DNA of 15,656 nucleotides from UHGV virus genome UHGV-0056727; one strand, 5' to 3'. Positions 1 through 14,910 of this stretch are shown piece after piece. Position numbers and translations under genes: made by a program. Under the pieces are notes generated by a model, which searched no databases, was not told where the DNA came from, and worked only from the letters and a program-made list of their open reading frames with translations. The stretch's first letter is position 1. Every line of letters begins with the position of its first letter. The DNA is from a virus.

Positions 1-1
1 G

Positions 2-382
2 TCGGATGTTATCCGGTGGTGGCGAAAACAACCTTTTGATTTGCAAATCCCGGAGCACCTAGGGAACTGTGTTTTTTGCATCAAAAAGTCAACGCAAAAG
101 CTGGGGCTTGCATGTAAAGACGAACCTGGTCTGATGCGGGTTTTTAATGAACTGGTTACAGGTAAACACGTCCGGGATGGTCACCGAAAGACAAATAAAG
201 ACGTTATGTACCGTGGTCATCTGAGCCTTGACGGGATTGCCAGAATGTATGCCGACAGCGACTACAGAAATTTGTATCAGGCGATGGTGCAAGCCAGGCG
301 ATTCGATACCGGCTCGTGTTCAGAGTCATGTGAAATCTGGGGTGATCAATTGGAGTTGAAATTCGAAGAGGTGGTGGCATGA
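2..382 (+). CDS. Hypothetical protein, C-terminal part (5' end lies upstream of the window); contains CxxC and CxxxC motifs
   Basis: Frame 2 is open from nt 2 with no stop before TGA 380-382, which overlaps the next gene's ATG (ATGA at 379-382). Function not recognised. Confidence 0.5.
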   Translation, partial: SDVIRWWRKQPFDLQIPEHLGNCVFCIKKSTQKLGLACKDEPGLMRVFNELVTGKHVRDGHRKTNKDVMYRGHLSLDGIARMYADSDYRNLYQAMVQARRFDTGSCSESCEIWGDQLELKFEEVVA

Positions 383-1083
383 CAACCAAAATTAACTATC
401 AGGCACTACGTGAGATAGCAAAACAGGCAACACAGGGCGAATGGGTCGCGTTTATTTCGACGGGTACAGGTACGTATGCTGTGCATACGCCCGGTGATAA
501 ACGATGTGAAGATGTTATCAAATGGACCGGCTTTGATGGGCTGAAAAACGCAGAGAACAACGCTCGTTATGTTGCCGCATTCAACCCAAAGGTTGCACTG
601 GAGCTACTTGGTGAAATTAAGCGCCTGGAGGACACAAATATTGATGCTATGTGCCGAATAGCACCGCTTGAGACTAAGCTCGCGGCGCTGGTGGCAGAGA
701 ACGCCGGGCTGAAACACGCAATGGCCGTAACTCTTGAGCATGTGTCGGTCACGGATGCAGGGCAGGCTGGTGTTGCTGCAATGATTATCAACGATGCCCT
801 ACACCACAGCGAAACTCCAGCTACCGATGCTTTTCTGGCTGAAATTCGTGCGGAAGCACGCAACGAGGGGATTAACTATACCGCCAGCCGTCTTGCTGCT
901 GCGTTCAATCACGGATTTATCAATAAGTCTTTGCGTGAAGTTTTCGACGTTACACGCATGATTTTGTCAGCGAAAGAAGAGTTGGCTAATGAAGCGCATC
1001 CGATTGATGGCCTGTCTGGTGAATATGCGGAGAAATCCCTTGAAGAATGGGCGGAACAGATTCGCAAAGGAAGCAGCCAGTGA
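379..1083 (+). CDS. Ead/Ea22-like family protein (234 aa)
   Basis: N-terminus MTTKINYQALREIAKQATQGEW... is the signature I associate with Ead/Ea22-like phage proteins. ATG overlaps the upstream stop. Shares identical 21-23-nt blocks with the ORFs at 2378 and 2662. Confidence 0.7.
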   Translation: MTTKINYQALREIAKQATQGEWVAFISTGTGTYAVHTPGDKRCEDVIKWTGFDGLKNAENNARYVAAFNPKVALELLGEIKRLEDTNIDAMCRIAPLETKLAALVAENAGLKHAMAVTLEHVSVTDAGQAGVAAMIINDALHHSETPATDAFLAEIRAEARNEGINYTASRLAAAFNHGFINKSLREVFDVTRMILSAKEELANEAHPIDGLSGEYAEKSLEEWAEQIRKGSSQ

Positions 1084-1370
1084 ATATCGACACGACAATA
1101 ACGATCGATACGCTCCTAAATACCGGTCTGGCACTTCTCGGTTGGCTTTACATCATGTCCCGTACATGGCGATGGCTGGGTTCCATTTTCCTAAAACAGT
1201 GGAAAAAACGGCGCAAACAGGAACTACGCCAGAAGGCATTAGAAGCGTTCTATGACGCATTTGAGCTTAGCCGTATTGAACCAGGTACAACAGCCAGGAT
1301 AGCGACAAAAGGCGACCTGATGATAGTGATGTTCCGACAGGAGAGAGCAGAGAAAGGGGAATCAGCATGA
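1080..1370 (+). CDS. Small membrane protein (~96 aa from GTG 1080; alternative ATG at 1047), one predicted TM helix followed by a basic segment
   Basis: GTG 1080 overlaps the upstream stop (GTGA) and the stop overlaps the next ATG (ATGA 1367-1370). Hydrophobic stretch LLNTGLALLGWLYIM then WKKRRKQELRQK. Confidence 0.4.
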   Translation: MNIDTTITIDTLLNTGLALLGWLYIMSRTWRWLGSIFLKQWKKRRKQELRQKALEAFYDAFELSRIEPGTTARIATKGDLMIVMFRQERAEKGESA

Positions 1371-2080
1371 AATTTTCCAAATTTTCTGAGTTGGTGAATC
1401 GTATTTTGTCCAACAACCACAGCCATCGTCGCGATATGGATGTAACAATCGTTGTTCATTCGCCTGGCAGCATTGGTTCAACACCTTCAGTTGAGGTTCA
1501 GTCAATTCACGCTGGTTTTGATTGGGATTCCGGGAAAGTGCTTATTTTCCCATCACAGCCACTGACCACGCTAACACCAGAACAGATTACTGATATCACT
1601 GATAGTGTGCGCAAAGGTCAGTCTTGGCACGCATTTCAGGAATACAAGAAGCATCAAGAGCAGTTGGAAAAATTGTCGATTGAACTGGATGCCGCAAAAC
1701 AGCGCATTGCAGAGCTGGATGGTAATCGCACGGCGCTGGCAGTGGAGAATGCCTCAATGAAGCTGTTTATCAGGGGCTGTTGCTACGTGTTTGATGGCCA
1801 GCAGGATGAAATATCTGATGCGTATATCTGCGCAACAGACGGAGGGATGCCGCAAATTCCAGCCACCGACGCTTTCCTGGCTGAAGTTCGGGCGCAGGGG
1901 GTGGATGCTGCTATAGAAGCTGCAAAAAATCTGGTGGCCCAAGAATATGAGTATAAGGATTTCAAAGCGGCGCAGAGTGATTGCTGTATGCACCCTGGTT
2001 CAGACCGGGTAGGGAAGGTTGAAATGACTGAGTGGTTAGTTGACTTTGCTGCCCAGCTTCGCAAAGGAGGCAACCAGTGA
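1367..2080 (+). CDS. Hypothetical protein (237 aa) with a C-terminal module paralogous to that of the 379..1083 protein
   Basis: ATG with upstream AAGGGGA RBS. C-terminal block ...TDAFLAEVRAQG...QLRKGGNQ parallels ...TDAFLAEIRAEA...QIRKGSSQ of the first Ead-like protein. Confidence 0.65.
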   Translation: MKFSKFSELVNRILSNNHSHRRDMDVTIVVHSPGSIGSTPSVEVQSIHAGFDWDSGKVLIFPSQPLTTLTPEQITDITDSVRKGQSWHAFQEYKKHQEQLEKLSIELDAAKQRIAELDGNRTALAVENASMKLFIRGCCYVFDGQQDEISDAYICATDGGMPQIPATDAFLAEVRAQGVDAAIEAAKNLVAQEYEYKDFKAAQSDCCMHPGSDRVGKVEMTEWLVDFAAQLRKGGNQ

Positions 2081-2376
2081 CTGTATGTCTTATTGATAAA
2101 CGTCGACGTGGGCAACAAATACCATCTGTTGAAATGCCGAATCACACATGGTTTTGCGTACTTGATATCGATGGTATGGATACGTTGGTTGACACTCGTC
2201 ATTACTGCGATACCGCAACAGCTACTCCGGCGAAAGCAAAGAAAATGGCTGCTCTGATAGAAAACTGGACTCCACCTGATGGTTGGTGCAATGGGAATGA
2301 TCGAGATTGGCACGAAAAAATGAAGGGCTATATCTGCGATTTTTTACGTAAATGCAACGGCTTCAGGGTGATGTGA
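2077..2376 (+). CDS. Small Cys-containing hypothetical protein (99 aa), GTG start
   Basis: GTG 2077 overlaps the upstream stop (GTGA), the same junction architecture as at 1080. The stop is 1 nt before the next ATG. Confidence 0.4.
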   Translation: MTVCLIDKRRRGQQIPSVEMPNHTWFCVLDIDGMDTLVDTRHYCDTATATPAKAKKMAALIENWTPPDGWCNGNDRDWHEKMKGYICDFLRKCNGFRVM

Positions 2377-2377
2377 T

Positions 2378-2665
2378 ATGACCAAAATTAACTATCAGGC
2401 ACTGCGTGAGGCGGCAGAACGTGCAATTCCGGCAATGGAACGTCTGTCAATGTTGCCAGTTGATGATGATTTGTTAAGTGAACAGGAACTTAAAGATTAC
2501 GGTGTGGATATTGATGCGCTCAACGCCTTCAAATTTCTGGCCGGACCAGAAACCGTGCTGGCGCTGCTGGATGAAAACGAAAGACTGTGTCGCGAGCTGA
2601 TAGCTCGTAATGGTGAGATTGAAGGGCTTCGGAAGTGGGCAGAAGAACGGGAGATGCAACCATGA
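2378..2665 (+). CDS. Short Ead-like N-terminal-domain protein (95 aa)
   Basis: ATG 2378 preceded by GGGTGA. N-terminus MTKINYQALREAAERA... A 23-nt block (2381-2403) is identical to 385-407. Confidence 0.6.
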   Translation: MTKINYQALREAAERAIPAMERLSMLPVDDDLLSEQELKDYGVDIDALNAFKFLAGPETVLALLDENERLCRELIARNGEIEGLRKWAEEREMQP

Positions 2666-3591
2666 TGACTTTTACCAGCGAACAATTAGCTACCTTACGT
2701 AAGATAGCGCAACAGGCAACACAGGGCGAATGGCGTGCATTCATCTCGCCGGACACTGGTACATATGCGGTGCATACGCCGGGGGATGAACGTTGCGGAG
2801 ACATTATCAAATGGCCTGGCTTTGACGGCCAGAAAAATGCAGAGAACAACGCAGAATTTATCGCAGCTTTCAACCCTAAATTAGTGCAGACACTGCTGGA
2901 TGAACGGGAAAGAAACCAGCAATACATCAAACGCCGCGACCAGGAGAACGAGGGGATTGCGCTTACGGTTGGGAAGCTGCGTGTTGAGCTTGAAGCAGCA
3001 AAATCAAAACTCAACGAGCAGCGTGAATATTACGAGGGAGTAATCGCGGATGGAAGTAAGCGCATAGCAGAACTGGAAAAACAATGCGCCGAATGGGAGC
3101 GAAAAGCATTAAGCAACTTTGAAGAGTGTGCTGCGATGGCTGAACGTATCGAAGAGATGCAGACAAAATCTGCACCAGATTCGTTTGGCATCATCGGTGA
3201 AAATATTCGAACACAGGACAATCGAATAACGTCAGATCCCATGTTTTGTGTGTATCAAAAGCGCGAAATCGCTGTTGATGCTGATTATGACCATGACCGG
3301 ATTGTCTGGGTTGACGAAGATGGCAATGAAGCCAATAAACGCCATAGTCGTCGTCTCGAGCTACTTCATGAAAACTTTCGAGAGCCACCAGAAAAATGGC
3401 GGCGCGTTGCTGTGAAAGATATTGATGAATTCGTTACCTGCTGTTTCACCGAACAGGGTTGTAAAGACTACCTGGCAGTCAATGGTCACAATCTTCGCTT
3501 GCCATTTATATATGTAAAAAGCGGTTTCAGGAACGCTGAATATATCGGCATAAGAAACTGGCTTGCTGGCATTCGCATCAAAGGAGAGTGA
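2662..3591 (+). CDS. Ead/Ea22-like family protein (309 aa from ATG 2662) with a coiled-coil middle and a distinct C-terminal domain
   Basis: ATG 2662 overlaps the upstream stop (ATGA). N-terminal ...QQATQGEWRAFISPDTGTYAVHTPGDERCGDIIKWPGFDGQKNAENNAEFIAAFNPK is about 70% identical to the 379 protein. Identical 21-mer at 2714-2734 and 424-444. Confidence 0.7.
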   Translation: MMTFTSEQLATLRKIAQQATQGEWRAFISPDTGTYAVHTPGDERCGDIIKWPGFDGQKNAENNAEFIAAFNPKLVQTLLDERERNQQYIKRRDQENEGIALTVGKLRVELEAAKSKLNEQREYYEGVIADGSKRIAELEKQCAEWERKALSNFEECAAMAERIEEMQTKSAPDSFGIIGENIRTQDNRITSDPMFCVYQKREIAVDADYDHDRIVWVDEDGNEANKRHSRRLELLHENFREPPEKWRRVAVKDIDEFVTCCFTEQGCKDYLAVNGHNLRLPFIYVKSGFRNAEYIGIRNWLAGIRIKGE

Positions 3592-3592
3592 T

Positions 3593-4110
3593 ATGGCGTT
3601 AACACACCGCGAACTCTGTCAGATTGCGTACAAGTTCCTTAAGCGCAACGGGTTCAAGGTTTGCTTTCATGACCGCTTTATAGCTGTAACCAGTACCGGA
3701 GAACAGCCAGATGCTATGGGATTCAGAAATTCAGCATCATGCTTGATAGAGGCGAAGTGTTCTCGTGCTGACTTGTTGGCAGATAGAAAAAAGCGTTTCC
3801 GTAAAAATCCGTCTCTTGGAATGGGCGACTGGCGATATTCTTTATTAGTGAGCCGGGAATTATTTCAGTTGAGGATTTACCTCCCGGCTGGGGATTACTT
3901 CACGTTGTTAACGGAAGAGTACGGAAAGTACATGGATGGCCCAAGGGGAATTGCTGTTGGGGTAATCCTGACGATAAGCCATTTACTGGGAATAAGCAGG
4001 TTGAATGCGATTACATGTTATCTGCATTAAGGCGCATGGAGCTAAGAGGACACCTTAATGAAATATATGACGGTGTAATTGTTAATAAGAAAGAAGGAAA
4101 CGCGGCATGA
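3593..4110 (+). pseudogene. Putative PD-(D/E)xK-motif protein apparently interrupted by a frameshift (frame 2 from ATG 3593, continuing in frame 1 to stop 4108-4110)
   Basis: Strong RBS AAGGAGAG before ATG 3593. PD...EAK motif in frame 2 (EQPDAMGFRNSASCLIEAKCS). Frame 1 is open 3805-4110, has no usable start, and ends on the ATGA overlap with the next gene. The annotated frame-2 ORF ends at 4030, leaving a 77-nt gap. Confidence 0.4.
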
Positions 4111-4463
4111 CCACTATTACCGACAAAGAACTGATTAAAGAAATCAAAGAGCGCATAGGCAGCTTGGACGTTCGAGACAATATTGAGCGCCGTGCTTATG
4201 AAATTGCACTGGCATCGCTGGAAGCAGAACCGATAGCGTGGGAATGCGGTGAAAACATAATCCTGTTTAACCCTGACACAGTTGAAGCATACGCAAAACG
4301 TGCGGAAATATCACCTAAACCACTATTCTCCGCGCCGCCAGCGCTGGTAGTGCCTGATAAGTTGCCGCGTGAATACAGAAACGGTTGGCCTCTTGCGTAT
4401 AGTGATTATGCTGAAGGCTGGAACGACTGCCGCGAAGCCATGCTTCAGGGAGATAAATCATGA
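4107..4463 (+). CDS. Hypothetical acidic protein (118 aa)
   Basis: ATG/stop overlaps with both neighbours (ATGA at 4107 and 4460). Confidence 0.65.
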   Translation: MTTITDKELIKEIKERIGSLDVRDNIERRAYEIALASLEAEPIAWECGENIILFNPDTVEAYAKRAEISPKPLFSAPPALVVPDKLPREYRNGWPLAYSDYAEGWNDCREAMLQGDKS

Positions 4464-4819
4464 TTAATCGTATCAAGCTGGAGCACATCCTCGAATATGC
4501 CAGGCAGCAGAGGCATATTGGTCAGCATTGTAAAATTCCACCAGGAGATATGGTTGAAATCATGGAGATTGCCATGCGCAAGGCTGGCAACTCTCCGGTA
4601 ACTCCGGATGGTTGGATAAGCTGTAGTGAGCGAATGCCGAATACCAAAACAGCCGTTCTTGTTGCCGTGGAGTTTGACAGGAAAGGTGACTGGCGAATGA
4701 AATGGGCTACTTACATCCCGGGGCATCCTGACGCTAATGATGGGTGGATAATTCCTGGTGCGTCGTGGAAACCGTCACACTGGATGCCGCTACCAGAACC
4801 GCCGCAGGAGGCAAAATGA
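4460..4819 (+). CDS. DUF551-like phage protein (119 aa)
   Basis: C-terminal W...RMP...VLVA...W...SHWMPLPEPP pattern, which I recall as DUF551. Coupled to both neighbours. Confidence 0.65.
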   Translation: MINRIKLEHILEYARQQRHIGQHCKIPPGDMVEIMEIAMRKAGNSPVTPDGWISCSERMPNTKTAVLVAVEFDRKGDWRMKWATYIPGHPDANDGWIIPGASWKPSHWMPLPEPPQEAK

Positions 4820-5076
4820 TGGATGTAAAAGAGAAGGTTTTGCAGGTGATACGTTCCCGTGCTGCCCTGCAAGAGAAAGCTCTCGGCGGGGAATATCCAT
4901 TCACGATAGCAACCTGGAATCTGCGGTTGGCAATGGAGAAGGAATTTCCTGATGAAGAATGGCGTTCGGCAGATTTGCGCAAAATTCTTATGGAGATGGC
5001 TAAAGATGGAACAGTATCCAAAGATACCCATGCCAGCCGGATTGGTCAGGCGGTATGGAGACTGGAGGTGAGATAA
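4816..5076 (+). CDS. Hypothetical protein (86 aa)
   Basis: ATG 4816 with AGGAGG RBS 7 nt upstream, overlapping the upstream stop. The ORF-track start at 4744 is a GTG extension in the same frame. Confidence 0.6.
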   Translation: MMDVKEKVLQVIRSRAALQEKALGGEYPFTIATWNLRLAMEKEFPDEEWRSADLRKILMEMAKDGTVSKDTHASRIGQAVWRLEVR

Positions 5077-5159
5077 TGAGCTGGCCTGAAGCATTCGCAA
5101 CGGTAGGAATTGTGATGGCGGCAGCACTGGGTTTGTATTCAATTTGTCGCTGGTGGTAA
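5076..5159 (+). CDS. Small hydrophobic peptide (27 aa, MSWPEAFATVGIVMAAALGLYSICRWW)
   Basis: ATG overlaps the upstream TAA (TAATG). GGAGG RBS 8 nt upstream. Single hydrophobic helix. Too short to be in the ORF track. Confidence 0.3.
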   Translation: MSWPEAFATVGIVMAAALGLYSICRWW

Positions 5160-5161
5160 CG

Positions 5162-5395
5162 ATGGGAAAATTAACTTTTGTAGTCGAATTTGAGGATGGT
5201 AAAGAGCCACCTGTTAGCGCCAATCTTGATGTTGCTGGTGGCAGGCTTGTTTCGGTTCTATTTGGTGACTACCGAGATGACTTCTTCCAACCAGAAGAAG
5301 TTGATGTAGTGCGAGAGGCATTAAACGAGTTAAGTGTTGATAACGATGATGCTCATGCGGAAATCATCCAAAAAATGGAACTGCTAACTCACTAA
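5162..5395 (+). CDS. Small strongly acidic protein (77 aa, about 18 D/E against 6 K/R)
   Basis: ATG 5162 lies 2 nt after the stop of the peptide ORF, with GGTGG upstream. The track start at 5144 is a TTG extension. Confidence 0.5.
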   Translation: MGKLTFVVEFEDGKEPPVSANLDVAGGRLVSVLFGDYRDDFFQPEEVDVVREALNELSVDNDDAHAEIIQKMELLTH

Positions 5396-5443
5396 ATTAT
5401 CAATTATGGTGCTATCACCTACGACACCGAGAGAAAATTTATA

Positions 5444-5566
5444 ATGTCAAAAGTAAATGTTTTGATTTTTTCAGCAATTGTTGGCTTTGGTTTTACTGCC
5501 GGAGTGCAGATTTATATTACGTGGAAAAAAATCATCAACTACGCATGGAGTTGTTTTATTAAGTGA
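5444..5566 (+). CDS. Possible small single-TM peptide (40 aa) in an AT-rich spacer
   Basis: ATG 5444, hydrophobic core VLIFSAIVGFGFTAGVQIYI then WKKIINYAW. No convincing RBS, so this could equally be a non-coding promoter region. Confidence 0.25.
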   Translation: MSKVNVLIFSAIVGFGFTAGVQIYITWKKIINYAWSCFIK

Positions 5567-5573
5567 GGTAAGT

Positions 5574-5867
5574 ATGTGGAGAGGTAATAATCATGGCAAA
5601 AGCCAGATGATACTTACCGAATATAAGCTAGACCACAAAACCAATAAATCACGCTCAGTATATTTGCTCCGGCACAATAGTCGCGTAAGAAATACCGTGC
5701 TGGAACAAAATCTGACAGTTGAAATGGATAATTACGGGGGCTTCAAGCCAGCAATTTCGCTTGATGATTTTCCTCGTGGTTTAAGCGAAAGAGAAGCAAT
5801 GCTGAAATTAGCAGAATGGCTACAAAGATTAAGCATTGCTATTGAAGATAACTGGTCTGAACCTTAA
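5574..5867 (+). CDS. Hypothetical protein (97 aa)
   Basis: ATG 5574 with GAGGT RBS 4 nt upstream. The track ORF 5478..5867 is the same frame from an upstream TTG. Confidence 0.45.
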   Translation: MWRGNNHGKSQMILTEYKLDHKTNKSRSVYLLRHNSRVRNTVLEQNLTVEMDNYGGFKPAISLDDFPRGLSEREAMLKLAEWLQRLSIAIEDNWSEP

Positions 5868-5873
5868 ATTTAT

Positions 5874-6248
5874 ATGATGACACTAAAACATTTTCTTGAC
5901 CGCCCATTATGGGCGGCAGCCGCAGGCTATGACTTTAATTATATGGATTGCATGTCTTATACTGCCAATGCATACGACCATTCGTTCAGCCTGCTGTTTA
6001 ATTCTTTAAGAATATTGCCGGAAACAGAAGTTGGAGAGCTTCATTTATGGCTATTGGGCTTTATCGCGGCTGTCGTTGGTATTGCTGTATGGCCTTTTAT
6101 TTTCTGGCTGGTGGCTGTTGTAGTGTGGTTTAAGTGCAAGACATACCGGAAAAAGTATTTCTTAGGTGATGGAATGACTGATATTGCCAAAATGAACATT
6201 GAAAAATGGACTAAGGAATGTGAAAAGAAATGGCGCAAAAAGAAATGA
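5874..6248 (+). CDS. Membrane protein (124 aa) with a roughly 30-residue hydrophobic segment and a polybasic C-terminus
   Basis: Segment LHLWLLGFIAAVVGIAVWPFIFWLVAVVVWF followed by KCKTYRKKY...KKWRKKK. AT-rich coding sequence, no clear RBS. Confidence 0.4.
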   Translation: MMTLKHFLDRPLWAAAAGYDFNYMDCMSYTANAYDHSFSLLFNSLRILPETEVGELHLWLLGFIAAVVGIAVWPFIFWLVAVVVWFKCKTYRKKYFLGDGMTDIAKMNIEKWTKECEKKWRKKK

Positions 6249-6871
6249 CCAGAATCACTGAAGAGCGTATATCAGAGATTATTTCCCGTATCGAAATGTA
6301 TGGTCACGGTGCTGGATATACGGCAGATGAAGTATTGGAAATAGCCCAGCAGATGCTGGCCTTGAGACAAAAAGAGCAACATGAAAGTAATACGTGTAGA
6401 TTTAATTTTGAGCAGTGGCTGGAACAGCAACGCGGAAAAATCGATGTGGACTGTGGTTGTGTGTCCACTGAAACATTCATGCACTGGCTGCGGGTAGCTT
6501 ACGAGGCTGGCAACTATCCGGATAGTTCGGTGCCAGCGCCAGGAAAGGGCGTCACCGGTGAACGTATCCGCATTAAGCCGCATGTTTATCGCGAACTGGT
6601 TAACCGTCTCCACGATACAGCGATCAAGTGTGCTGGCACCCAGCAATTACGAGAAAAAATTAGCCGTGTTTTGGGCGACGTTATTACGCCAGATCATCAT
6701 AAACAAGTCGAGAAAAGTGGCCTGGAAAGATGTCACCTTGAGGCGGCATTAAACATTAAGCCAGGGCATACGCTTGGCATTATTGATGCACTATTGGTTC
6801 ATAAGATGGCCAGGGCTTTATTGCCGCTGGTGGCTGATAAGCAAGAGGCGGGCCATGCCAACGAAAGCTGA
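6245..6871 (+). CDS. Hypothetical protein (208 aa from ATG 6245; in-frame ATG at 6230 also possible)
   Basis: ATG 6245 overlaps the upstream stop (ATGA). No recognisable domain. Confidence 0.55.
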   Translation: MTRITEERISEIISRIEMYGHGAGYTADEVLEIAQQMLALRQKEQHESNTCRFNFEQWLEQQRGKIDVDCGCVSTETFMHWLRVAYEAGNYPDSSVPAPGKGVTGERIRIKPHVYRELVNRLHDTAIKCAGTQQLREKISRVLGDVITPDHHKQVEKSGLERCHLEAALNIKPGHTLGIIDALLVHKMARALLPLVADKQEAGHANES

Positions 6872-7139
6872 GTTACAGGCGCGCATAGAGATTCTTGAAA
6901 AAGAGAATGCGAGTCTAAAAGGAATGCTGGCGCGGGCTGAAAGGGAATTATCAGGCAAATTATTGCCAGAAGAACTGCCACCAGCAGATATACCAGATCG
7001 AGTGTCCCGGTGGATGAAGTCTTTTGGTTTACCGTGGGAGGCTTTTTGGTGCTACGAGCATCGCAGATGGTGTGATGAACTTGATAGCAGTTTCCCCTAC
7101 TTTGCGGAAGGGAACACCTGCCCTGAGTGTAGGAGGTAG
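6855..7139 (+). CDS. Small protein (94 aa) with an N-terminal coiled-coil-like segment and a C-terminal CxxH...C...CxxC putative zinc-binding motif
   Basis: ATG 6855 preceded by GAGGCGG. The track ORF 6774..7139 is an upstream extension of the same frame. Motif WCYEHRRWC...CPEC. Confidence 0.5.
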   Translation: MPTKAELQARIEILEKENASLKGMLARAERELSGKLLPEELPPADIPDRVSRWMKSFGLPWEAFWCYEHRRWCDELDSSFPYFAEGNTCPECRR

Positions 7140-7143
7140 CGCG

Positions 7144-7401
7144 ATGTTTCGTCCTCGTCCAATACCGCCGAAAATAACTAATGGCTATCAGCCGAATACT
7201 CCAGAAATACAAGGGAGCGAGGGGCTTAAACCACCAGCACCACGTATTCCGCCTGTAGCAAGGAACGTATCATTACGACGAGAGTTAATATTAGCCTTGT
7301 CGCCCGTTCTGGCTGCCCGCCAGGATTGGGTAAGTAATGATGACCTGGCAGAAAAAATCACATCGCTGGTGGATAAAATTCTGCATAAAGCTGATCTCTG
7401 A
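7144..7401 (+). CDS. Hypothetical protein (85 aa), Pro-rich N-terminus
   Basis: ATG 7144 with AGGAGGT RBS. Last gene before a terminator hairpin. Confidence 0.55.
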   Translation: MFRPRPIPPKITNGYQPNTPEIQGSEGLKPPAPRIPPVARNVSLRRELILALSPVLAARQDWVSNDDLAEKITSLVDKILHKADL

Positions 7402-7412
7402 TCACCATGCTA

Positions 7413-7443
7413 AAATCCCCTCAATTCACAGAGGGGATTTTTG
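7413..7443 (+). terminator. Rho-independent terminator-like hairpin (stem ATCCCCTC / GAGGGGAT, 8-nt loop, followed by TTTTT)
   Basis: Perfect 8-bp GC-rich stem plus a U-run 12 nt after the stop at 7399-7401. The 3' stem arm GAGGGG is also the only SD-like sequence for the ATG at 7447. Confidence 0.55.
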
Positions 7444-7446
7444 TCT

Positions 7447-7713
7447 ATGTTGCATAGAGTTTTATGGAAAAGCGTTATTGTCGGCGCGATACTGGCTATA
7501 TCTGGGTGTGCAATGGTGCAATACAACGACGGTGAAAAGGTAAGCATACAGTCAGATGGTTGGTATGGCCTGGATAGCCTGCAAAAAACCGCAGATAAAG
7601 CCTGTCAGCAATATGGGAAGTCTAAAGCAGTATATCAGCATAGCGCGAACGCTAACCCTCATCTAGCGCCCGGTTCGGGTGTTCAGAATACCATCTGGAA
7701 ATGTGAGCCTTAA
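7447..7713 (+). CDS. Putative lipoprotein (88 aa; signal peptide with lipobox LAISG-C)
   Basis: N-terminus [21 protein letters not shown] is a classic lipoprotein signal. It sits where P1 has a small gene next to hot (possibly lxr, symbol not certain). Confidence 0.6.
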
Positions 7714-7715
7714 AT

Positions 7716-7967
7716 ATGAGCGACTGGAATATTGCAGCTAAAAGTCAGGAAGAACGGGATAAGGTTAACGTTGATCTGGCTGCCAGCGGTGTGGCGTACA
7801 AAGAGCGATTGAACATACCTGTCATAGCTGAACAGGTAGCCCGCGAGCAACCAGAGAATCTGCGCACCTATTTCATGGAACGGTTACGGCACTATCGGCA
7901 GTTAAGCCTCCAGTTGCCAAAAGGGAGCGATCCGGTGTATCAGAACGAGGATGCACCAAAAAAATAA
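7716..7967 (+). CDS. hot: Hot, homolog of DNA polymerase III theta subunit (HolE)
   Basis: Block [43 protein letters not shown] closely matches E. coli theta as I recall it. Position immediately upstream of humD as in P1. Confidence 0.85.
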
Positions 7968-8052
7968 CGGCAAGATGGGGGAGAAATGTGATTAGCCCCC
8001 AGCGTGGCGCGCCTACAAACCCCGCTTTCACAAACTATGCCTTTTCAATGTA

Positions 8053-8072
8053 TACTGTATGAATAAACAGTA
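8053..8072 (+). promoter_or_regulatory. LexA (SOS) box TACTGTATGAATAAACAGTA upstream of humD
   Basis: CTGT-N8-ACAG core with flanks close to the SOS-box consensus TACTGTATATATATACAGTA. Lies 19 nt upstream of the humD ATG, overlapping a TATACT -10-like hexamer. Confidence 0.8.
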
Positions 8073-8090
8073 TCATTGAGGTAAAACGCT

Positions 8091-8480
8091 ATGGGCTTCC
8101 CTTCTCCTGCGGCGGATTATGTTGAAAGCCGAATTTCTCTTGATCAGCAGATAATTAGACATCCTTCAGCGACCTACTTCATGCGGGCAGCTGATAGCCA
8201 TCACCGTGAGGGAATATTGCAGGGTGCTTTGCTGGTGGTTGATTCCTCGCTTACTCCGGTTGATGGTTCTCTGCTTGTGTGCGCTATGGAGGGTGAATAT
8301 CGCATAAAGAGATACAGGAAGTATCCGCGCCAGCACCTGGAGGACTTAAGCACCGGGAAGAAAGAGGCGTTACCAGTAGATGACGATGGATACACGGGCA
8401 GTAATGCTGTTTTTGGTGTGATCACTCATGTCATCAATGATGCCCGAAGTGGGGAATTTGATGATTGTCCGGTTATTTAA
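8091..8480 (+). CDS. humD: HumD, UmuD'-like translesion-synthesis accessory protein (129 aa)
   Basis: Starts GFPSPAADYVE..RI.L.Q.I.HPSATYF, which corresponds to the processed (UmuD') N-terminus of E. coli UmuD. GAGGT RBS and LexA box upstream. Confidence 0.9.
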   Translation: MGFPSPAADYVESRISLDQQIIRHPSATYFMRAADSHHREGILQGALLVVDSSLTPVDGSLLVCAMEGEYRIKRYRKYPRQHLEDLSTGKKEALPVDDDGYTGSNAVFGVITHVINDARSGEFDDCPVI

Positions 8481-11035: not shown

Positions 11036-12229
11036 GTGACCTGGGACGATCACAAGAAGAATTTTGCTCGCCTGGCGCGAGATGGTGGTTACACCATCGC
11101 ACAGTATGCCGCCGAGTTTAATCTTAACCCTAATACCGCACGTCGTTATCTCCGTGCCTTCAAAGAAGACACCAGGACTACGGACAGCCGCAAGCCAAAT
11201 AAGCCAGTCAGGAAGCCACTAAAAAGCATGATCATTGATCACTCTAATGATCAACATGCAGGTGATCACATTTCGGCTGAAATAGCGGAAAAACAAAGAG
11301 TTAATGCCGTTGTCAGTGCCGCAGTCGAGAATGCGAAGCGCCAAAATAAGCGCATAAATGATCGTTCAGATGATCATGACGTGATCACCCGCGCCCACCG
11401 GACCTTACGTGATCGCCTGGAACGCGACACCCTGGATGATGATGGTGAACGCTTTGAATTCGAAGCTGGCGATTACCTGATAGATAACGTTGAAGCGCGG
11501 AAGGCCGCGCGCGCTATGTTGCGTCGGTCCGGGGCCGATGTTCTGGAAACCACTCTTCTGGAAAAGTCTCTTTCTCATCTCCTTATGCTGGAGAACGCCA
11601 GGGATACGTGTATTCGCCTAGTGCAGGAAATGCGCGATCAGCAAAAAGACGATGATGAAGGTACTCCGCCTGAATACCGTATCGCGAGCATGCTAAACAG
11701 CTGTTCCGCGCAGATAAGCAGCCTGATCAACACCATTTACAGCATCCGGAATAACTATCGAAAAGAAAGCCGGGAGGCGGAAAAGCACGCTTTATCTATG
11801 GGGCAAGCTGGCATTGTTAAGCTGGCATACGAACGAAAGCGTGAAAATAACTGGTCAGTGCTGGAAGCGGCTGAATTCATCGAGGCGCATGGAGGAAAAG
11901 TGCCGCCCCTGATGCTGGAGCAAATCAAAGCCGATCTGCGTGCTCCTAAGACCAATACCGATGATGAGGAAAACCAAACAGCATCTGGCGCTCCATCACT
12001 TGAAGATCTGGATAAAATCGCGCGAGAACGGGCCGCCAGCCGCCGCGCTGATGCGGCATTGTGGATTGAGCATCGTAGAGAAGAAATTGCCGATATCGTC
12101 GATACAGGTGGTTATGGTGATGTCGATGCGGAAGGCATATCAAACGAAGCATGGCTTGAACAGGATCTGGACGAAGACGAGGAGGAAGACGAAGAAGTTA
12201 CCCGCAAACTGTACGGGGATGATGATTAA
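11036..12229 (+). CDS. pacA: PacA, small terminase / pac-recognition subunit (397 aa), acidic C-terminal tail
   Basis: GTG 11036 with AAGGAAG RBS. N-terminus [10 protein letters not shown]... The pac hexamer array lies inside the 5' part of the gene, as in P1. Stop overlaps the pacB ATG. Confidence 0.85.
11229..11387 (+). other. pac packaging site: 4 + 3 TGATC(A/G) hexamers, each carrying a Dam GATC, flanking the cleavage region
   Basis: TGATCA at 11229, 11236, 11248 and 11263; TGATCG at 11359; TGATCA at 11371 and 11382. This is the arrangement described for P1 pac. Confidence 0.8.
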
Positions 12230-13713
12230 TGGCCAGAAGTTGCGTAACGGACCCACGTTGGCGCGAGCTGGTGGCGCTATATCGTTATGACTGGATTGCG
12301 GCCGCTGATGTGTTGTTTGGGAAGACACCAACCTGGCAGCAGGATGAGATCATTGAGTCCACGCAGCAGGACGGCAGTTGGACAAGTGTGACCTCCGGCC
12401 ATGGTACTGGTAAATCGGATATGACGAGTATCATTGCAATACTCTTCATCATGTTTTTCCCCGGCGCTCGCGTCATTCTGGTCGCTAACAAAAGACAGCA
12501 AGTCCTTGATGGTATTTTCAAATACATAAAGAGCAATTGGGCTACTGCTGTTAGCAGATTCCCGTGGTTGTCGAAGTATTTCATTCTTACAGAAACGTCT
12601 TTTTTTGAGGTGACTGGCAAGGGTGTTTGGACAATATTGATAAAGTCCTGTCGCCCCGGAAATGAGGAGGCGTTGGCTGGTGAACACGCCGATCATCTCT
12701 TGTATATCATCGACGAAGCGTCGGGTGTGAGTGATAAAGCATTCAGTGTGATAACAGGTGCGCTGACCGGTAAGGATAACCGTATTCTGCTTCTTTCCCA
12801 GCCTACGCGACCTTCAGGCTATTTCTACGATTCACACCACAGACTAGCTATTCGCCCGGGAAATCCTGATGGATTGTTTACTGCGATAATACTGAATAGT
12901 GAAGAATCTCCGCTTGTAGATGCAAAATTTATACGAGCAAAACTTGCGGAGTATGGCGGTCGTGATAACCCCATGTACATGATCAAAGTACGTGGTGAAT
13001 TTCCCAAATCTCAAGATGGCTTTCTTCTTGGTCGTGATGAGGTTGAGCGGGCGACGCGGCGAAAGGTCAAGATTGCCAAAGGATGGGGCTGGGTTGCATG
13101 TGTTGACGTTGCTGGTGGCACAGGACGAGATAAGTCCGTTATTAATATCATGATGGTGTCCGGCCAGCGAAATAAACGCCGTGTAATCAACTATCGTATG
13201 CTGGAATACACAGACGTTACAGAAACGCAGTTAGCCGCCAAGATTTTCGCAGAATGTAACCCAGAACGGTTCCCGAACATAACCATAGCTATTGATGGCG
13301 ATGGCTTGGGGAAATCGACGGCTGATCTAATGTACGAACGCTATGGCATTACCGTCCAGCGTATCCGCTGGGGTAAAAAGATGCACAGCCGTGAAGATAA
13401 AAGCCTTTATTTCGATATGCGCGCTTTCGCGAATATTCAGGCGGCAGAAGCTGTAAAATCAGGGCGTATGAGGCTTGATAAGGGGGCTGCGACTATAGAG
13501 GAAGCATCAAAGATACCGGTAGGGATAAATTCCGCAGGTCAATGGAAGGTGATGTCAAAGGAAGATATGAAGAAAAAACTCAACCTGCACTCACCGGACC
13601 ATTGGGATACATATTGTTTCGCTATGTTGGCGAACTATGTTCCCCAAGATGAAGTGCTTAGCGTCGAAGACGAAGCGCAGGTTGATGAAGCTCTGGCATG
13701 GCTTAATGAATAA
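12229..13713 (+). CDS. pacB: PacB, large terminase subunit (494 aa)
   Basis: Walker A-like [14 protein letters not shown] motif, and the length and position expected for P1 PacB. Confidence 0.9.
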
Positions 13714-13738: not shown

Positions 13739-14590
13739 CTATTGCGCGCTTTCGGGGTTGCTGTTTACTGGCTGCCCCTTCTTAGTTTTACGGCTGCGCG
13801 TAACTGATGCGGCTGATTTGACCTTTTTCTCTTCGCGAGTGATGGCAATTTGTTTTTTTACATTTTCAATATCTGCCAGGCGATATATTTTTGCCTGCGG
13901 CCAGCGGTCGCAGATGATCGGTTCTATAGAGTCATAAAGGCTAAATTTTGCTTTCTCGAATTCACCGTTGATGATGATTCCATCACGGAGAGTTTCATCG
14001 CAGATAAACACACCACACAGCGGCACATGGTAACTAACTGATTTACCATCATTGTAGTTAGGGCTACTGGAAATGTAATGGACGCGCAGCATTGTTTCGC
14101 TAAAGCCGTGTACACGCATACGGAATTTTTCATCCTCCGGGTACTGCTTCATTAGCTCTTTTGTTGCTTCCAGGTTCTCTATGTATTTCGCACTGTGCTC
14201 ATTGATCCCCGCGCTTTTCTGGATGCGAATGTCCTTATCAATCAGATGAATAATGCGGCCAGCGGTCATGTTGACGCTGTTCACAGCTTCTGTCTGATAA
14301 GTAGTAACCTTACGCACACCGCGAAGGATGTTAGGCACTGGATATAAAATAGTCTTTGGGATATTGAGGTCTGGGTACTGTTCCAGTTCCCGCGCCATTA
14401 AAGTCCATTTATCAATTTCAGCCTGAATGCTGTCCGTTTCTTTGAACGGCAGAACGACAACCGGGCGAACAGGACGACCGTCGCTGGCGGCATCAACGTG
14501 TTGGGCGCGTGCAACAGCTTTTTTTAGAAAGAGATCCCTGAAGCTGACGAACTCCTGGTACAGTTGTTCGCCGTAGACATAATTTATCAT
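13739..14590 (-). CDS. c1: C1 repressor of lysis (283 aa)
   Basis: MINYVYGEQLYQEFVSFRDLFLKK... matches my recollection of P1 C1. Strong GGAGGAGG RBS. Convergent with pacB, 25 bp between stops. Confidence 0.92.
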   Translation of the reverse strand: MINYVYGEQLYQEFVSFRDLFLKKAVARAQHVDAASDGRPVRPVVVLPFKETDSIQAEIDKWTLMARELEQYPDLNIPKTILYPVPNILRGVRKVTTYQTEAVNSVNMTAGRIIHLIDKDIRIQKSAGINEHSAKYIENLEATKELMKQYPEDEKFRMRVHGFSETMLRVHYISSSPNYNDGKSVSYHVPLCGVFICDETLRDGIIINGEFEKAKFSLYDSIEPIICDRWPQAKIYRLADIENVKKQIAITREEKKVKSAASVTRSRKTKKGQPVNSNPESAQ

Positions 14591-14684: not shown

Positions 14685-14701
14685 AGATTTATTAGTGCAT
14701 T
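14685..14701 (-). promoter_or_regulatory. C1 operator-like site (14/17 on the minus strand) at the coi stop / c1 leader
   Basis: Plus-strand AGATTTATTAGTGCATT compared with the reverse-complement consensus AAATTTATTAGAGCAAT. Confidence 0.45.
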
Positions 14702-14910
14702 TATTGTGAGTCTGGCTGGTTAGTGGCCATGAGATATTCGATTGTGTCAGTGAGATCATCCAGGTCGTCTTGGGTGATGCGGTACTCCTGATTGGATATC
14801 TTTGAGTAGTGTTCAGCAATGGCGCGGGCAGCGTCGGTTTCGGCGGGGTCTACAGATAAAGCGTTAGAGCAATGTCTAACGTCGTCGATGGTTGGTGGAA
14901 TGAAAGCCAT
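14701..14910 (-). CDS. coi: Coi, C1 inactivator (69 aa)
   Basis: 69-aa acidic protein immediately upstream of c1 in the same orientation, as in P1 immC. Confidence 0.85.
   Translation of the reverse strand: MAFIPPTIDDVRHCSNALSVDPAETDAARAIAEHYSKISNQEYRITQDDLDDLTDTIEYLMATNQPDSQ

What the first reader, a model, noticed from the sequence alone, without database searches (positions are those of the whole stretch)
4107..5395. Small acidic proteins in the coupled operon as candidate DNA mimics or anti-defence factors
The 77-aa product of 5162-5395 has about 18 Asp/Glu against 6 Lys/Arg, and the 118-aa product of 4107-4463 is also net acidic. Small, strongly acidic early phage proteins are a recurring signature of DNA-mimic anti-restriction or anti-defence proteins. 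These sit in a non-essential-looking operon of unknown function.
Basis: inference. Interest (0 to 1): 0.45.

Follow-up and report, generated by a model that had tools for sequence, protein, structure and literature searches.

The report
Small acidic accessory proteins, P1-like plasmid
Two small genes in a dispensable, repressor-controlled operon of a P1-like phage-plasmid are real, and one is unusually acidic and belongs to an uncharacterised "conserved head plus acidic tail" family borrowed from lambda-like prophages, but nothing shows that either mimics DNA or blocks a bacterial defence.

Summary
ORF 5162-5395 encodes 77 aa with 18 D/E and 6 K/R (net -12, pI 4.16). ORF 4107-4463 encodes 118 aa with 22 D/E and 15 K/R (net -7, pI 4.66). 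Both lie in a tightly coupled gene string.

The window is a P1-like phage-plasmid. The string fills the known variable, non-essential region between pap and hot. Its cargo comes from the lambdoid exo-xis/ea/nin accessory gene pool.

The 118-aa protein is only ordinarily acidic. It is a free-standing copy of modules that elsewhere form part of Ea22/DUF551 mosaic proteins, and it carries a premature stop in Stx2 phage 1717. It is not a credible DNA-mimic candidate.

The 77-aa protein is under strong purifying selection (dN/dS 0.02) and its family stays acidic. It belongs to a larger family with a conserved 36-aa N-terminal head joined to unrelated tails. Those tails are acidic in 80-95% of members; others are DUF551-like, and one is Tad2-like. 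Homologues sit in early operons of lambdoid prophages. In the closest P1-like plasmid the operon follows a C1 operator.

Neither protein matches any known DNA mimic, anti-defence protein, Pfam family or solved fold. An acidic decoy or inhibitor role is plausible but untested.

The parts
4107..4463 (+). 118-aa protein (A118). It belongs to phrog_5117. The AlphaFold model has an N-terminal helical hairpin (aa 6-39), a small strand/helix middle part, and a C-terminal helix carrying the GWNxCRxAML motif. It is a free-standing copy of modules found inside Ea22/DUF551 mosaic proteins.
4460..4819 (+). 119-aa DUF551 protein, translationally coupled to A118 by an ATGA overlap.
   Evidence: It matches Pfam PF04448 at E 6.2e-22. 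The overlap is read.
4816..5076 (+). 85/86-aa protein in phrog_2814, annotated 'eaa protein' in phage RCS47.
5076..5159 (+). Unannotated 27-aa hydrophobic ORF (MSWPEAFATVGIVMAAALGLYSICRWW). It is coupled on both sides.
   Evidence: The sequence is read. Its DNA is conserved at 82-85% identity in many Stx phages that lack the 77-aa gene.
5162..5395 (+). 77-aa acidic protein (E77), phrog_3876, whole gene including the stop codon.
5162..5269 (+). E77 head: aa 1-36 (MGKLTFVVEFEDGKEPPVSANLDVAGGRLVSVLFGD). It is predicted as a beta-hairpin and is the conserved N-terminal module of a larger family.
   Evidence: Column identity is 81% in the N-terminal half (aa 1-42). The head alone matches most of the 151 representative proteins that score E<=0.001, and these carry different C-termini. 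It also occurs in stand-alone proteins of 46-70 aa. The strands are modelled at moderate confidence (pLDDT 64-73).
5270..5392 (+). E77 tail: aa 37-77. It contains the DYRDDFF motif and two amphipathic acidic helices (aa 44-56 and 62-74).
   Evidence: Column identity is 48% in the C-terminal half (aa 43-77), but the median net charge of that half is -8. The helices are modelled at pLDDT 82-90.
5444..5566 (+). 40-aa hydrophobic ORF (phrog_5525). In P1-like elements it travels with E77 as a cassette.
   Evidence: The PHROG match is. It is annotated in SJ46. In RCS47 the 27-aa ORF, E77 and this ORF are replaced together by an ASCH-domain gene.
379..7139 (+). The surrounding string of accessory genes, all on the + strand, that fills the P1 variable region between pap and hot. 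It includes Ea22-like, DUF4752, DUF551 and unknown genes. The window starts downstream of its promoter.
   Evidence: No + strand sigma-70-like site was found in 1-8000, and a terminator-like hairpin lies at 7412-7441.

Best explanation
Shown: both ORFs are real, translationally coupled genes in the cargo of the known variable, non-essential region of P1-like phage-plasmids. In phage P1 this position holds pmgT to upfO, between pap and hot. In this window the cargo comes from the accessory gene pool of lambdoid prophages (the exo-xis / ea / nin regions).

Inferred from the closest relative: the operon is read from the C1-repressed promoter just downstream of pap. It would therefore be silent in the lysogen and switched on early after infection or induction.

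The 118-aa protein is a stand-alone assembly of three short modules. These are a helical hairpin, a PLFxAPP linker segment and a GWNxCR helix. Elsewhere the same modules form the N-terminal or middle part of Ea22/DUF551 mosaic proteins. Its charge is ordinary. I regard it as a member of that mosaic pool, probably a scaffold or oligomerisation piece, and not as a DNA mimic.

The 77-aa protein belongs to a previously undescribed family. The family has a conserved 36-aa N-terminal beta 'head' joined to interchangeable tails. Most tails are short and strongly acidic, but their sequences are unrelated.

My best mechanistic guess for the 77-aa protein is an inference, not a demonstration. The head would supply folding, oligomerisation or docking. 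The acidic tail would occupy a basic, probably nucleic-acid-binding, surface of a host or rival-element protein. The protein would then act as a small stoichiometric decoy or inhibitor. The target could be a defence system, or it could be a transcription or repair factor. This is 'works like an acidic decoy', not membership of any known DNA-mimic family.
For: Identity of the element. The window's ORFs correspond in length, order and position to the annotated pacA, lpa, phd, doc, humD and hot genes of the P1-like phages SJ46 and RCS47. Coi is 100% identical to P1 Coi.

Variable, non-essential region. PMC9603915 lists pmgT-upfO-hot as variable region 8 of P1-like phage-plasmids. PMC10695390 scores pmgT to upfO as non-essential in P1.

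Early control. The P1 record annotates the C1 operator OpmgT (Op88) overlapping predicted sigma-70 promoters directly after pap. The same stretch, with the operator ATTGCTCTAATAAATCT, is present after pap in pNJS001-1. That plasmid is the closest relative of the window (99.7% identity over 79% of positions 1-7500). No other + strand promoter-like site occurs in window 1-8000.

Lambdoid origin. The neighbours carry Pfam Ead_Ea22 and DUF551 domains. A118 is 99% identical to a gene in the exo-xis region of Stx2 phage 1717, downstream of the Ea22-like gene and immediately upstream of the DUF551 gene. E77 homologues lie at the distal end of pL operons in the order N-kil-gam-recT-exo-methylase-TraR-like-[E77]-xis-int. 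Short family members lie near Lar and Ea22 genes, or behind DUF551 genes in nin regions.

Real, constrained gene. E77 has dN/dS 0.02 against SJ46. It is present in at least 217 plasmid records.

Conserved charge. The family median net charge is -12, and the variable C-terminal half is still at -8.

Head-plus-tail family. A profile search found 151 representative proteins at E<=0.001, most matching only positions 1-36. Tails are net negative in 78 of 98 representatives and in 79 of 83 short proteins. Median charge density is -0.13 and -0.28 respectively. Examples of tails are ALEEPEEDED and VIQDMDDMELD.

Interchangeable modules. The same head is fused to DUF551-like domains, to a Tad2-like domain (PF11195, E 1.1e-12) and to the GWNxCR module of A118.

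A118 as a module. It aligns to the N-terminal part of DUF551 proteins of 145-207 aa. It also matches an internal stretch of the broad phrog_60 profile, whose other positions match Ea22-like and DUF551 proteins of this window.

Against: Both models have low global confidence (pTM 0.46), and the conserved head is the least confident part. Surface charge patterning could therefore not be assessed.

The head could be conserved partly because gene 5' ends act as recombination junctions in mosaic phages, rather than for a shared biochemical role.

The promoter and operator lie outside the window and are inferred from a relative. Expression timing has not been measured.

The characterised exo-xis proteins affect the lysis-lysogeny decision and transcription, not defence (PMC10834534, PMC8614690).

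No conserved partner gene was seen next to E77 homologues.
Confidence: 0.45

Rival explanations
1. E77, and perhaps A118, is a true DNA mimic in the manner of Ocr, ArdA or AcrIIA4. Its folded surface would copy the phosphate pattern of B-DNA and block restriction-modification or other DNA-targeting defences.
For: E77 has a net charge of -12 over 77 aa, comparable in density to known small mimics; that comparison is from my own knowledge and was not computed here. The charge is conserved across the family. The gene sits in an early accessory operon. Orphan DNA methylases, Gam and a Lar restriction-alleviation gene occur in the same operons in relatives.

Against: In the wider family the tails are often only 10-25 residues of low-complexity acid. 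That looks like a flexible tail rather than a rigid phosphate-mimicking surface.

A118's acidity is ordinary (rank 16 of 80), and the gene is broken in Stx2 phage 1717.

Coi shows that the same charge signature in this same element can serve a different function.
Confidence: 0.1
2. E77 and A118 modulate phage development or host physiology, as the characterised exo-xis proteins do. Those include Ea22, Orf60a/61/63 and the TraR-like Orf73. They tune the lysis-lysogeny decision, the SOS response or RNA polymerase rather than countering defence systems.
For: Homologues occupy the same exo-xis position as those genes, next to zf-dskA_traR (Orf73-like) and Ea22-like genes. Ea22 likewise has a conserved N-terminal part and variable, predominantly acidic C-terminal domains, one variant of which is DUF551 (PMC10834534). 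Exo-xis proteins are proposed to act on transcription factors or RNA polymerase (PMC8614690).
Against: E77 and A118 show no homology to any of the characterised exo-xis proteins; they fall in separate PHROG families. P1-like elements use a different immunity circuit (C1/Coi/Ant), so a lambda-specific developmental target is not obviously present. This rival is not exclusive of the decoy mechanism, because the target could be a transcription factor.
Confidence: 0.25
3. One or both ORFs are functionally neutral by-products of mosaic recombination. They would be gene fragments carried along in a hot spot with no selected function of their own.
For: A118 consists of modules that elsewhere are parts of larger proteins. 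It has a premature stop in Stx2 phage 1717. The neighbouring ORF 3593-4030 is frameshifted relative to its homologue in phage 1717. The cassette containing E77 is replaced by an ASCH-domain gene in RCS47.
Against: E77 has dN/dS 0.02 with substantial synonymous divergence. It keeps its length of 76-83 aa across several genera and is present in at least 217 plasmid records. The A118-type arrangement recurs, intact, in many clusters.
Confidence: 0.1
4. E77 is the acidic neutralising partner (antitoxin-like) of the small hydrophobic peptides that flank it, the 27-aa ORF at 5076-5159 and the 40-aa ORF at 5444-5566.
For: The three ORFs are tightly linked. In P1-like elements they behave as one cassette, which RCS47 replaces as a unit. 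Antitoxins are often small and acidic; this is general knowledge.
Against: E77 homologues in lambdoid prophages lack homologues of these peptides. The 27-aa ORF is conserved in many Stx phages that have no E77. There are no hits in PADLOC or to Pfam toxin-antitoxin families.
Confidence: 0.05
5. They are morphogenetic or scaffolding components, as the P1 gene names at this position ('pmg', putative morphogenetic) suggest.
For: The only support is the position and the historical naming of the P1 genes there.
Against: The P1 genes at this position are non-essential (PMC10695390) and are not homologous to the cargo in this window. The operon is preceded by a C1 operator and sigma-70 promoters, not by a late promoter. 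In lambdoid prophages the homologues sit in early operons, far from the structural genes.
Confidence: 0.03

Closest known systems
Ocr (T7 gp0.3) and ArdA DNA-mimic anti-restriction proteins
   Same: Like E77, they are small, strongly acidic proteins made early by mobile elements. The proposed mode of action is also alike: occupying a DNA-binding surface.
   Different: There is no sequence, profile or fold similarity. E77 is shorter. Its conserved part is a mildly acidic head. Most of its charge sits in a variable tail rather than on a rigid, conserved surface. No activity is known.
Lambda and Stx-phage Ea22 and the exo-xis accessory proteins
   Same: They share the genomic neighbourhood and early expression. 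They share the mosaic build, with a conserved N-terminal part and swappable, predominantly acidic C-terminal domains (PMC10834534). They share the DUF551 partner domain. A118 overlaps the same broad PHROG profile (phrog_60) as Ea22-like and DUF551 proteins.
   Different: E77 has no detectable homology to Ea22, Orf60a, Orf61, Orf63 or Orf73, and it lacks a coiled coil. The documented Ea22 phenotype is pro-lysogenic development, not anti-defence.
P1 Coi (C1 repressor inactivator)
   Same: Coi is encoded in the same window at 14701-14910 on the - strand. It is 69 aa with net charge -10 and pI 4.06. It is C1-controlled, and the P1 record annotates it as inactivating a DNA-binding protein. It is the nearest functional analogy for an acidic decoy in this element.
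   Different: There is no sequence similarity; Coi falls in a different PHROG family. It is at a different locus, and its target (C1) is known.
Tad2 (Thoeris anti-defence 2, PF11195)
   Same: One relative, P0325, joins the E77-type head to a Tad2-like domain. The head can therefore carry a domain type associated with anti-defence.
   Different: E77 itself has no Tad2-like domain. Only one such fusion was seen. PF11195 membership does not prove sponge activity.
[quoted passage not shown]
   Same: It occupies the same slot between pap and hot, downstream of the same C1 operator and promoter. It is likewise non-essential and variable among P1-like phage-plasmids (PMC9603915; PMC10695390).
   Different: The gene content differs. 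This window carries lambdoid ea-type genes and not the P1 genes.

Membership tests
Ocr/ArdA-type DNA-mimic anti-restriction proteins | Sequence or profile homology to the Ocr or ArdA families. | tested here: not met
   Neither protein has any Pfam, NCBIfam or PDB-sequence hit at E<=0.1. Profile searches against the PDB also found nothing.
Ocr/ArdA-type DNA-mimic anti-restriction proteins | A fold resembling a solved DNA mimic. | tested here: not met
Ocr/ArdA-type DNA-mimic anti-restriction proteins | A large excess of acidic residues. | tested here: met
   E77 has net charge -12 over 77 aa, and this is conserved in the family. A118 meets the criterion only weakly (net -7 over 118 aa; rank 16 of 80 in the background set).
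Ocr/ArdA-type DNA-mimic anti-restriction proteins | Surface carboxylates spaced like DNA phosphates on a rigid dimer. | not testable with these tools
The oligomeric state was not modelled.
Ocr/ArdA-type DNA-mimic anti-restriction proteins | Relief of restriction in vivo, or competition with DNA in vitro. | not testable with these tools
   This requires an experiment.
Anti-CRISPR proteins (small acidic type, e.g. AcrIIA4 or AcrF2) | Homology to a known Acr, or an adjacent HTH 'aca' regulator gene. | tested here: not met
   The AcrIIA4 match to A118 has E = 1.4, which is chance level. No HTH family was found in the neighbouring genes that were scanned.
Lambdoid exo-xis / ea / nin accessory gene pool | Homologues lie in early-operon accessory regions of lambdoid prophages, either between the recombination genes and xis/int or in the nin region. 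| tested here: met
   A118 lies in the exo-xis region of Stx2 phage 1717. E77 homologues lie distal in pL operons of Citrobacter and other prophages. Short family members lie next to Lar and Ea22 genes, or behind DUF551 genes in nin regions.
Lambdoid exo-xis / ea / nin accessory gene pool | Mosaic sharing of sub-gene modules with Ea22/DUF551 proteins. | tested here: met
   A118 corresponds to the N-terminal part of DUF551 proteins and matches an internal stretch of phrog_60. The E77 head is fused to DUF551-like domains and to the A118-type GWNxCR module.
Lambdoid exo-xis / ea / nin accessory gene pool | Dispensability and presence/absence variation. | tested here: met
   A118 has a premature stop in Stx2 phage 1717. 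The E77 cassette is replaced by an ASCH-domain gene in RCS47. pNJS001-1 lacks the A118 segment. No deletion phenotype was tested.
Cargo of P1-like variable region 8 (pap to hot) | Location between pap/pmgS and hot/humD/phd-doc on a P1-like backbone. | tested here: met
   The region is syntenic with SJ46, RCS47, pNJS001-1 and P1. The region itself is defined in PMC9603915.
Type II antitoxin or toxin-antitoxin module | A conserved adjacent toxin partner and homology to a toxin-antitoxin family. | tested here: not met
   There are no PADLOC or Pfam toxin-antitoxin hits. The flanking hydrophobic ORFs are not co-conserved with E77 outside P1-like elements.
Tad2 (Thoeris anti-defence 2) | Presence of the PF11195 domain. 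| tested here: not met
   E77 has no Pfam hit. Only the distant relative P0325 carries the domain.

The most novel reading that the evidence does not exclude
The 36-aa beta head defines a large, undescribed family of tiny early proteins in temperate enterobacterial phages and phage-plasmids. The head would be a portable oligomerisation or targeting module. It would present polyacidic tails, or alternatively DUF551-like or Tad2-like domains, to neutralise DNA-binding host immunity proteins. On this reading E77 is one member of a new modular class of anti-defence decoys.
Probability: 0.15. Interest if true: 0.65.

Novelty: new member of a known kind. Interest (0 to 1): 0.35.

Why it matters
P1-like phage-plasmids are common carriers of resistance genes in E. 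coli and Salmonella. Their few variable regions are where host-interaction functions are likely to sit.

If the 77-aa protein and its head-plus-acidic-tail relatives turn out to be inhibitors of defence systems or of other DNA-binding proteins, several things follow. There would be a new, easily recognised family of counter-defence genes. The recurrent N-terminal modules in the poorly understood exo-xis/nin accessory regions of lambdoid and Shiga-toxin phages would have an explanation. A compact 36-aa module for building inhibitors would become available.

If they are not, the result still helps. It shows that acidity alone is a weak predictor, and that the 118-aa protein is an ordinary piece of a mosaic.

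Tried and rejected
- Family scans. Pfam, NCBIfam and PADLOC scans of both proteins and their neighbours gave no informative hits apart from DUF551 and Ead_Ea22 in the neighbours. PHROGs returned only families of unknown function.
- PDB sequence and profile searches found nothing. The AcrIIA4 hit at E = 1.4 and the SAMP2 hits at E about 0.6-0.8 were rejected as chance.
- A118 and E77 are not homologous to each other (hhalign probability 1.2%).
- A third large protein search, using the head alignment, returned only short proteins. It gave no domain-architecture statistics, but it did reveal the stand-alone head-plus-acidic-tail proteins.
- Regulatory and RNA checks. There are no C1 operators or + strand promoter-like sites inside the accessory string, no Rfam match in the window, and no counterpart of the P1 late promoter LPhot upstream of hot.
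- Literature. No paper mentions these accessions or PHROG families. None links the exo-xis region to anti-defence. The P1 genome paper could not be read, and the P1 RNA-seq paper gave no timing for this region.
- The toxin-antitoxin idea involving the flanking hydrophobic ORFs was rejected because they are not co-conserved with E77.
Full report
**What the window is.** The ORF map and megablast place the window on a P1-like phage-plasmid (genus Punavirus). The window's ORFs correspond in length, order and position to the annotated pacA, lpa, phd, doc, humD and hot genes of SJ46 and RCS47; pacB (12229-13713) and c1 (13739-14590, - strand) match the layout of those genes in the P1 record. Coi (14701-14910, - strand) is 100% identical to P1 Coi. 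Positions 379-7139 are a string of + strand genes in the slot that in P1 holds pmgT to upfO, between pap and hot. That slot is one of eight known variable regions of P1-like phage-plasmids (PMC9603915). Its P1 genes are non-essential (PMC10695390). In this window the slot holds Ead/Ea22-like genes (2378-2665, 2662-3591), a DUF551 gene (4460-4819) and families of unknown function. This is cargo typical of the exo-xis/ea regions of lambdoid and Shiga-toxin phages (PMC10834534).

**Checking the observation.** The counts are right. ORF 5162-5395 encodes 77 aa with 18 D/E, 6 K/R, net -12 and pI 4.16. ORF 4107-4463 encodes 118 aa with 22 D/E, 15 K/R, net -7 and pI 4.66. Both have plausible ribosome-binding sites, and their starts match those of their homologues. 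The genes are tightly coupled: an ATGA overlap at 4460-4463, a stop-start overlap at 4816-4819, TAATG at 5074-5078, and a 2-nt gap before 5162. An unannotated 27-aa hydrophobic ORF (5076-5159) lies just upstream of the 77-aa gene, and a 40-aa hydrophobic ORF (5444-5566) lies downstream.

I compared both proteins with 80 small proteins from the window and comparable operons. The 77-aa family is the most acidic group. The 118-aa protein ranks 16th, which is unremarkable. This background is small and includes six family members.

**The 118-aa protein (A118).** It belongs to phrog_5117 and also matches an internal stretch of the broad phrog_60 profile. A large search found 1644 relatives. Many of them are DUF551 proteins of 145-207 aa in which the whole A118 sequence forms the N-terminal part, followed by a linker and DUF551. 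The alignment shows three shuffled sub-modules:
- a helical hairpin ending in IALASLEAEP;
- a middle segment ending in PLFxAPPxxVVP;
- a C-terminal helix carrying GWNxCRxAML.

**The 77-aa protein (E77).** It belongs to phrog_3876. It has 106 close relatives, all in Enterobacterales. The gene occurs in at least 217 plasmid records, mostly 80-117 kb and non-mobilizable, which is the profile of P1-like elements. It occurs in only three phage records.

It is clearly a selected gene. Against SJ46, pS is 0.216, pN is 0.006 and dN/dS is 0.02.

**A wider family.** A profile search of 1.8 billion representative proteins found 151 proteins at E<=0.001. Most match only positions 1-36. This 36-aa head sits at the N-terminus of proteins whose C-termini vary widely:
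- DUF551-like (for example P0262, P0266, P0321);
- a Tad2-like PF11195 domain (P0325, E 1.1e-12);
- the GWNxCR module of A118 (P0355; pairwise E 3e-5);
- cysteine-rich, zinc-ribbon-like tails;
- a hydrophobic segment.

Most often the tail is acidic. Tails are net negative in 78 of 98 representatives, with median charge density -0.13. They are net negative in 79 of 83 stand-alone proteins of 46-70 aa, with median density -0.28. The sequences are unrelated, for example ALEEPEEDED and VIQDMDDMELD. E77 is the DYRDDFF-plus-two-helix subtype. Negative charge thus recurs across unrelated tails. That is better evidence for selection on charge than the composition of one protein.

DUF551 is found attached to three different N-terminal parts: Ea22 with its coiled coil (PMC10834534), the A118-type hairpin, and the E77-type head. 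I therefore infer that these N-terminal parts are interchangeable scaffold or oligomerisation modules, and that the tails are the effector parts. This is an inference and has not been shown.

**Context and timing.** E77 homologues in Citrobacter and related prophages lie at the distal end of the early-left operon. The order is N, kil, gam, recT, exo, Dam/MT-A70 methylases, a TraR-like zinc finger, NinX, DUF4222, the E77 homologue, then xis and int. Short family members lie two genes downstream of a Lar restriction-alleviation gene and next to Ea22-like genes. Others lie directly behind a DUF551 gene in the nin region of the early-right operon.

For the P1 context, the P1 record annotates the C1 operator OpmgT (Op88) overlapping two predicted sigma-70 promoters immediately after pap. 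The same sequence is present in pNJS001-1. That plasmid matches the window at 99.7% identity. Inside window 1-8000 there are no C1 operator matches and no + strand promoter-like sites until the one at 8027-8056. A terminator-like hairpin closes the string at 7412-7441. Early, C1-repressed expression is therefore likely, but it is inferred from a relative and has not been measured.

**Weighing the interpretation.** Several points favour a decoy or inhibitor role for E77:
- conserved charge across the family and across the wider head-plus-tail family;
- early accessory operons that also carry methylases, Gam and Lar;
- a hot-spot location;
- one Tad2-like fusion of the head.

Several points weigh against calling it a DNA mimic or an anti-defence protein:
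- there is no homology or fold match to any known example;
- the models are of low global confidence, so charge patterning could not be examined;
- many family tails look like short flexible acid runs rather than rigid surfaces;
- the only characterised proteins of this neighbourhood affect phage development and transcription (PMC10834534, PMC8614690);
- Coi, in the same window, has the same signature (69 aa, net -10, pI 4.06) and is annotated as a repressor inactivator.

The flanking hydrophobic ORFs are not co-conserved with E77 outside P1-like elements, so a toxin-antitoxin reading is weak.

**Verdict.** The genes are catalogued hypothetical proteins in a known variable region. The modest new point is the head-plus-acidic-tail architecture and its module sharing with DUF551, Tad2-like and A118-type domains. 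I found no description of it in the literature I could search. Interest is moderate to low unless an activity is demonstrated.

Noticed in passing
window 14701-14910 (- strand): Coi is 100% identical to P1 Coi. It is 69 aa with net charge -10 and pI 4.06, as acidic as the 77-aa protein. Its annotated role is inactivating the C1 repressor. It serves as an internal control showing that the 'small and acidic' signature is not specific to anti-restriction.
   Followed up: yes
window 5076-5159 (+): An unannotated 27-aa hydrophobic ORF is translationally coupled between the 85-aa gene and the 77-aa gene. Its DNA is conserved at 82-85% identity in many Stx phages (for example 933W and VT2-Sakai) that lack the 77-aa gene.
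   Followed up: partly
window 3593-4030 (+): This 145-aa ORF matches Stx2 phage 1717 gp06 (172 aa, noted there as similar to P7 Upf89.0) in two different reading frames, aa 1-82 and aa 83-145. One of the two copies is therefore frameshifted. The PHROG profiles also match only the first 82 residues.
   Followed up: partly
L003 4606-4962 (Stx2 phage 1717): The copy of the 118-aa gene in this phage is 99.7% identical to the window but has a stop codon at position 45. The record annotates only a 44-aa fragment.
   Followed up: yes
window 385-430, 2381-2426, 2674-2719; also 407-615 versus 2696-2904: Three genes in the string (379-1083, 2378-2665, 2662-3591) begin with the same Ea22-type N-terminal coding segment. 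A fourth gene (1367-2080) shares the C-terminal part of 379-1083. These are repeated mosaic paralogues within one operon.
   Followed up: partly
window 7412-7713 (+): A terminator-like hairpin (7412-7441) is followed by a 90-aa ORF with a lipoprotein-like signal sequence (LAISGC), assigned to phrog_7757. The ORF directly abuts hot. It occupies the place of P1 upfM-upfO, and the P1 late promoter LPhot is absent.
   Followed up: partly
window 41-382 (+); L012 4510-5382: The first ORF of the window is the C-terminal part of a phosphoadenosine-phosphosulfate-reductase-family protein. In pNJS001-1 that protein is the second gene of the accessory operon. Enzymes of this family in phages are sometimes linked to DNA modification; that statement is from memory and was not tested.
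   Followed up: no
L002 5474-5755 (phage RCS47): RCS47 carries an ASCH-domain gene exactly where this window and SJ46 carry the cassette of the 27-aa ORF, the 77-aa gene and the 40-aa ORF. The flanking genes are the same on both sides, so this is a clean cassette swap.
   Followed up: partly
protein P0325 (a representative): In this protein the 36-aa head of the 77-aa family is fused, through an acidic linker, to a Tad2-like domain (PF11195, E 1.1e-12). Its genomic context could not be looked up.
   Followed up: partly
window 5001-6500: G+C content dips to 0.39-0.43 across the 77-aa cassette and the next genes, against 0.45-0.51 on either side. This agrees with the reported link between low G+C and the variable hot spots of P1-like elements (PMC6906374, PMC9603915).
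   Followed up: no
window 1-8200, + strand: Only 4 sigma-70-like sites were found on both strands, against 13.0 +/- 4.1 expected from shuffles. Only one of them is on the + strand (8027-8056, just upstream of humD). This fits one long polycistronic unit driven from outside the window.
   Followed up: partly
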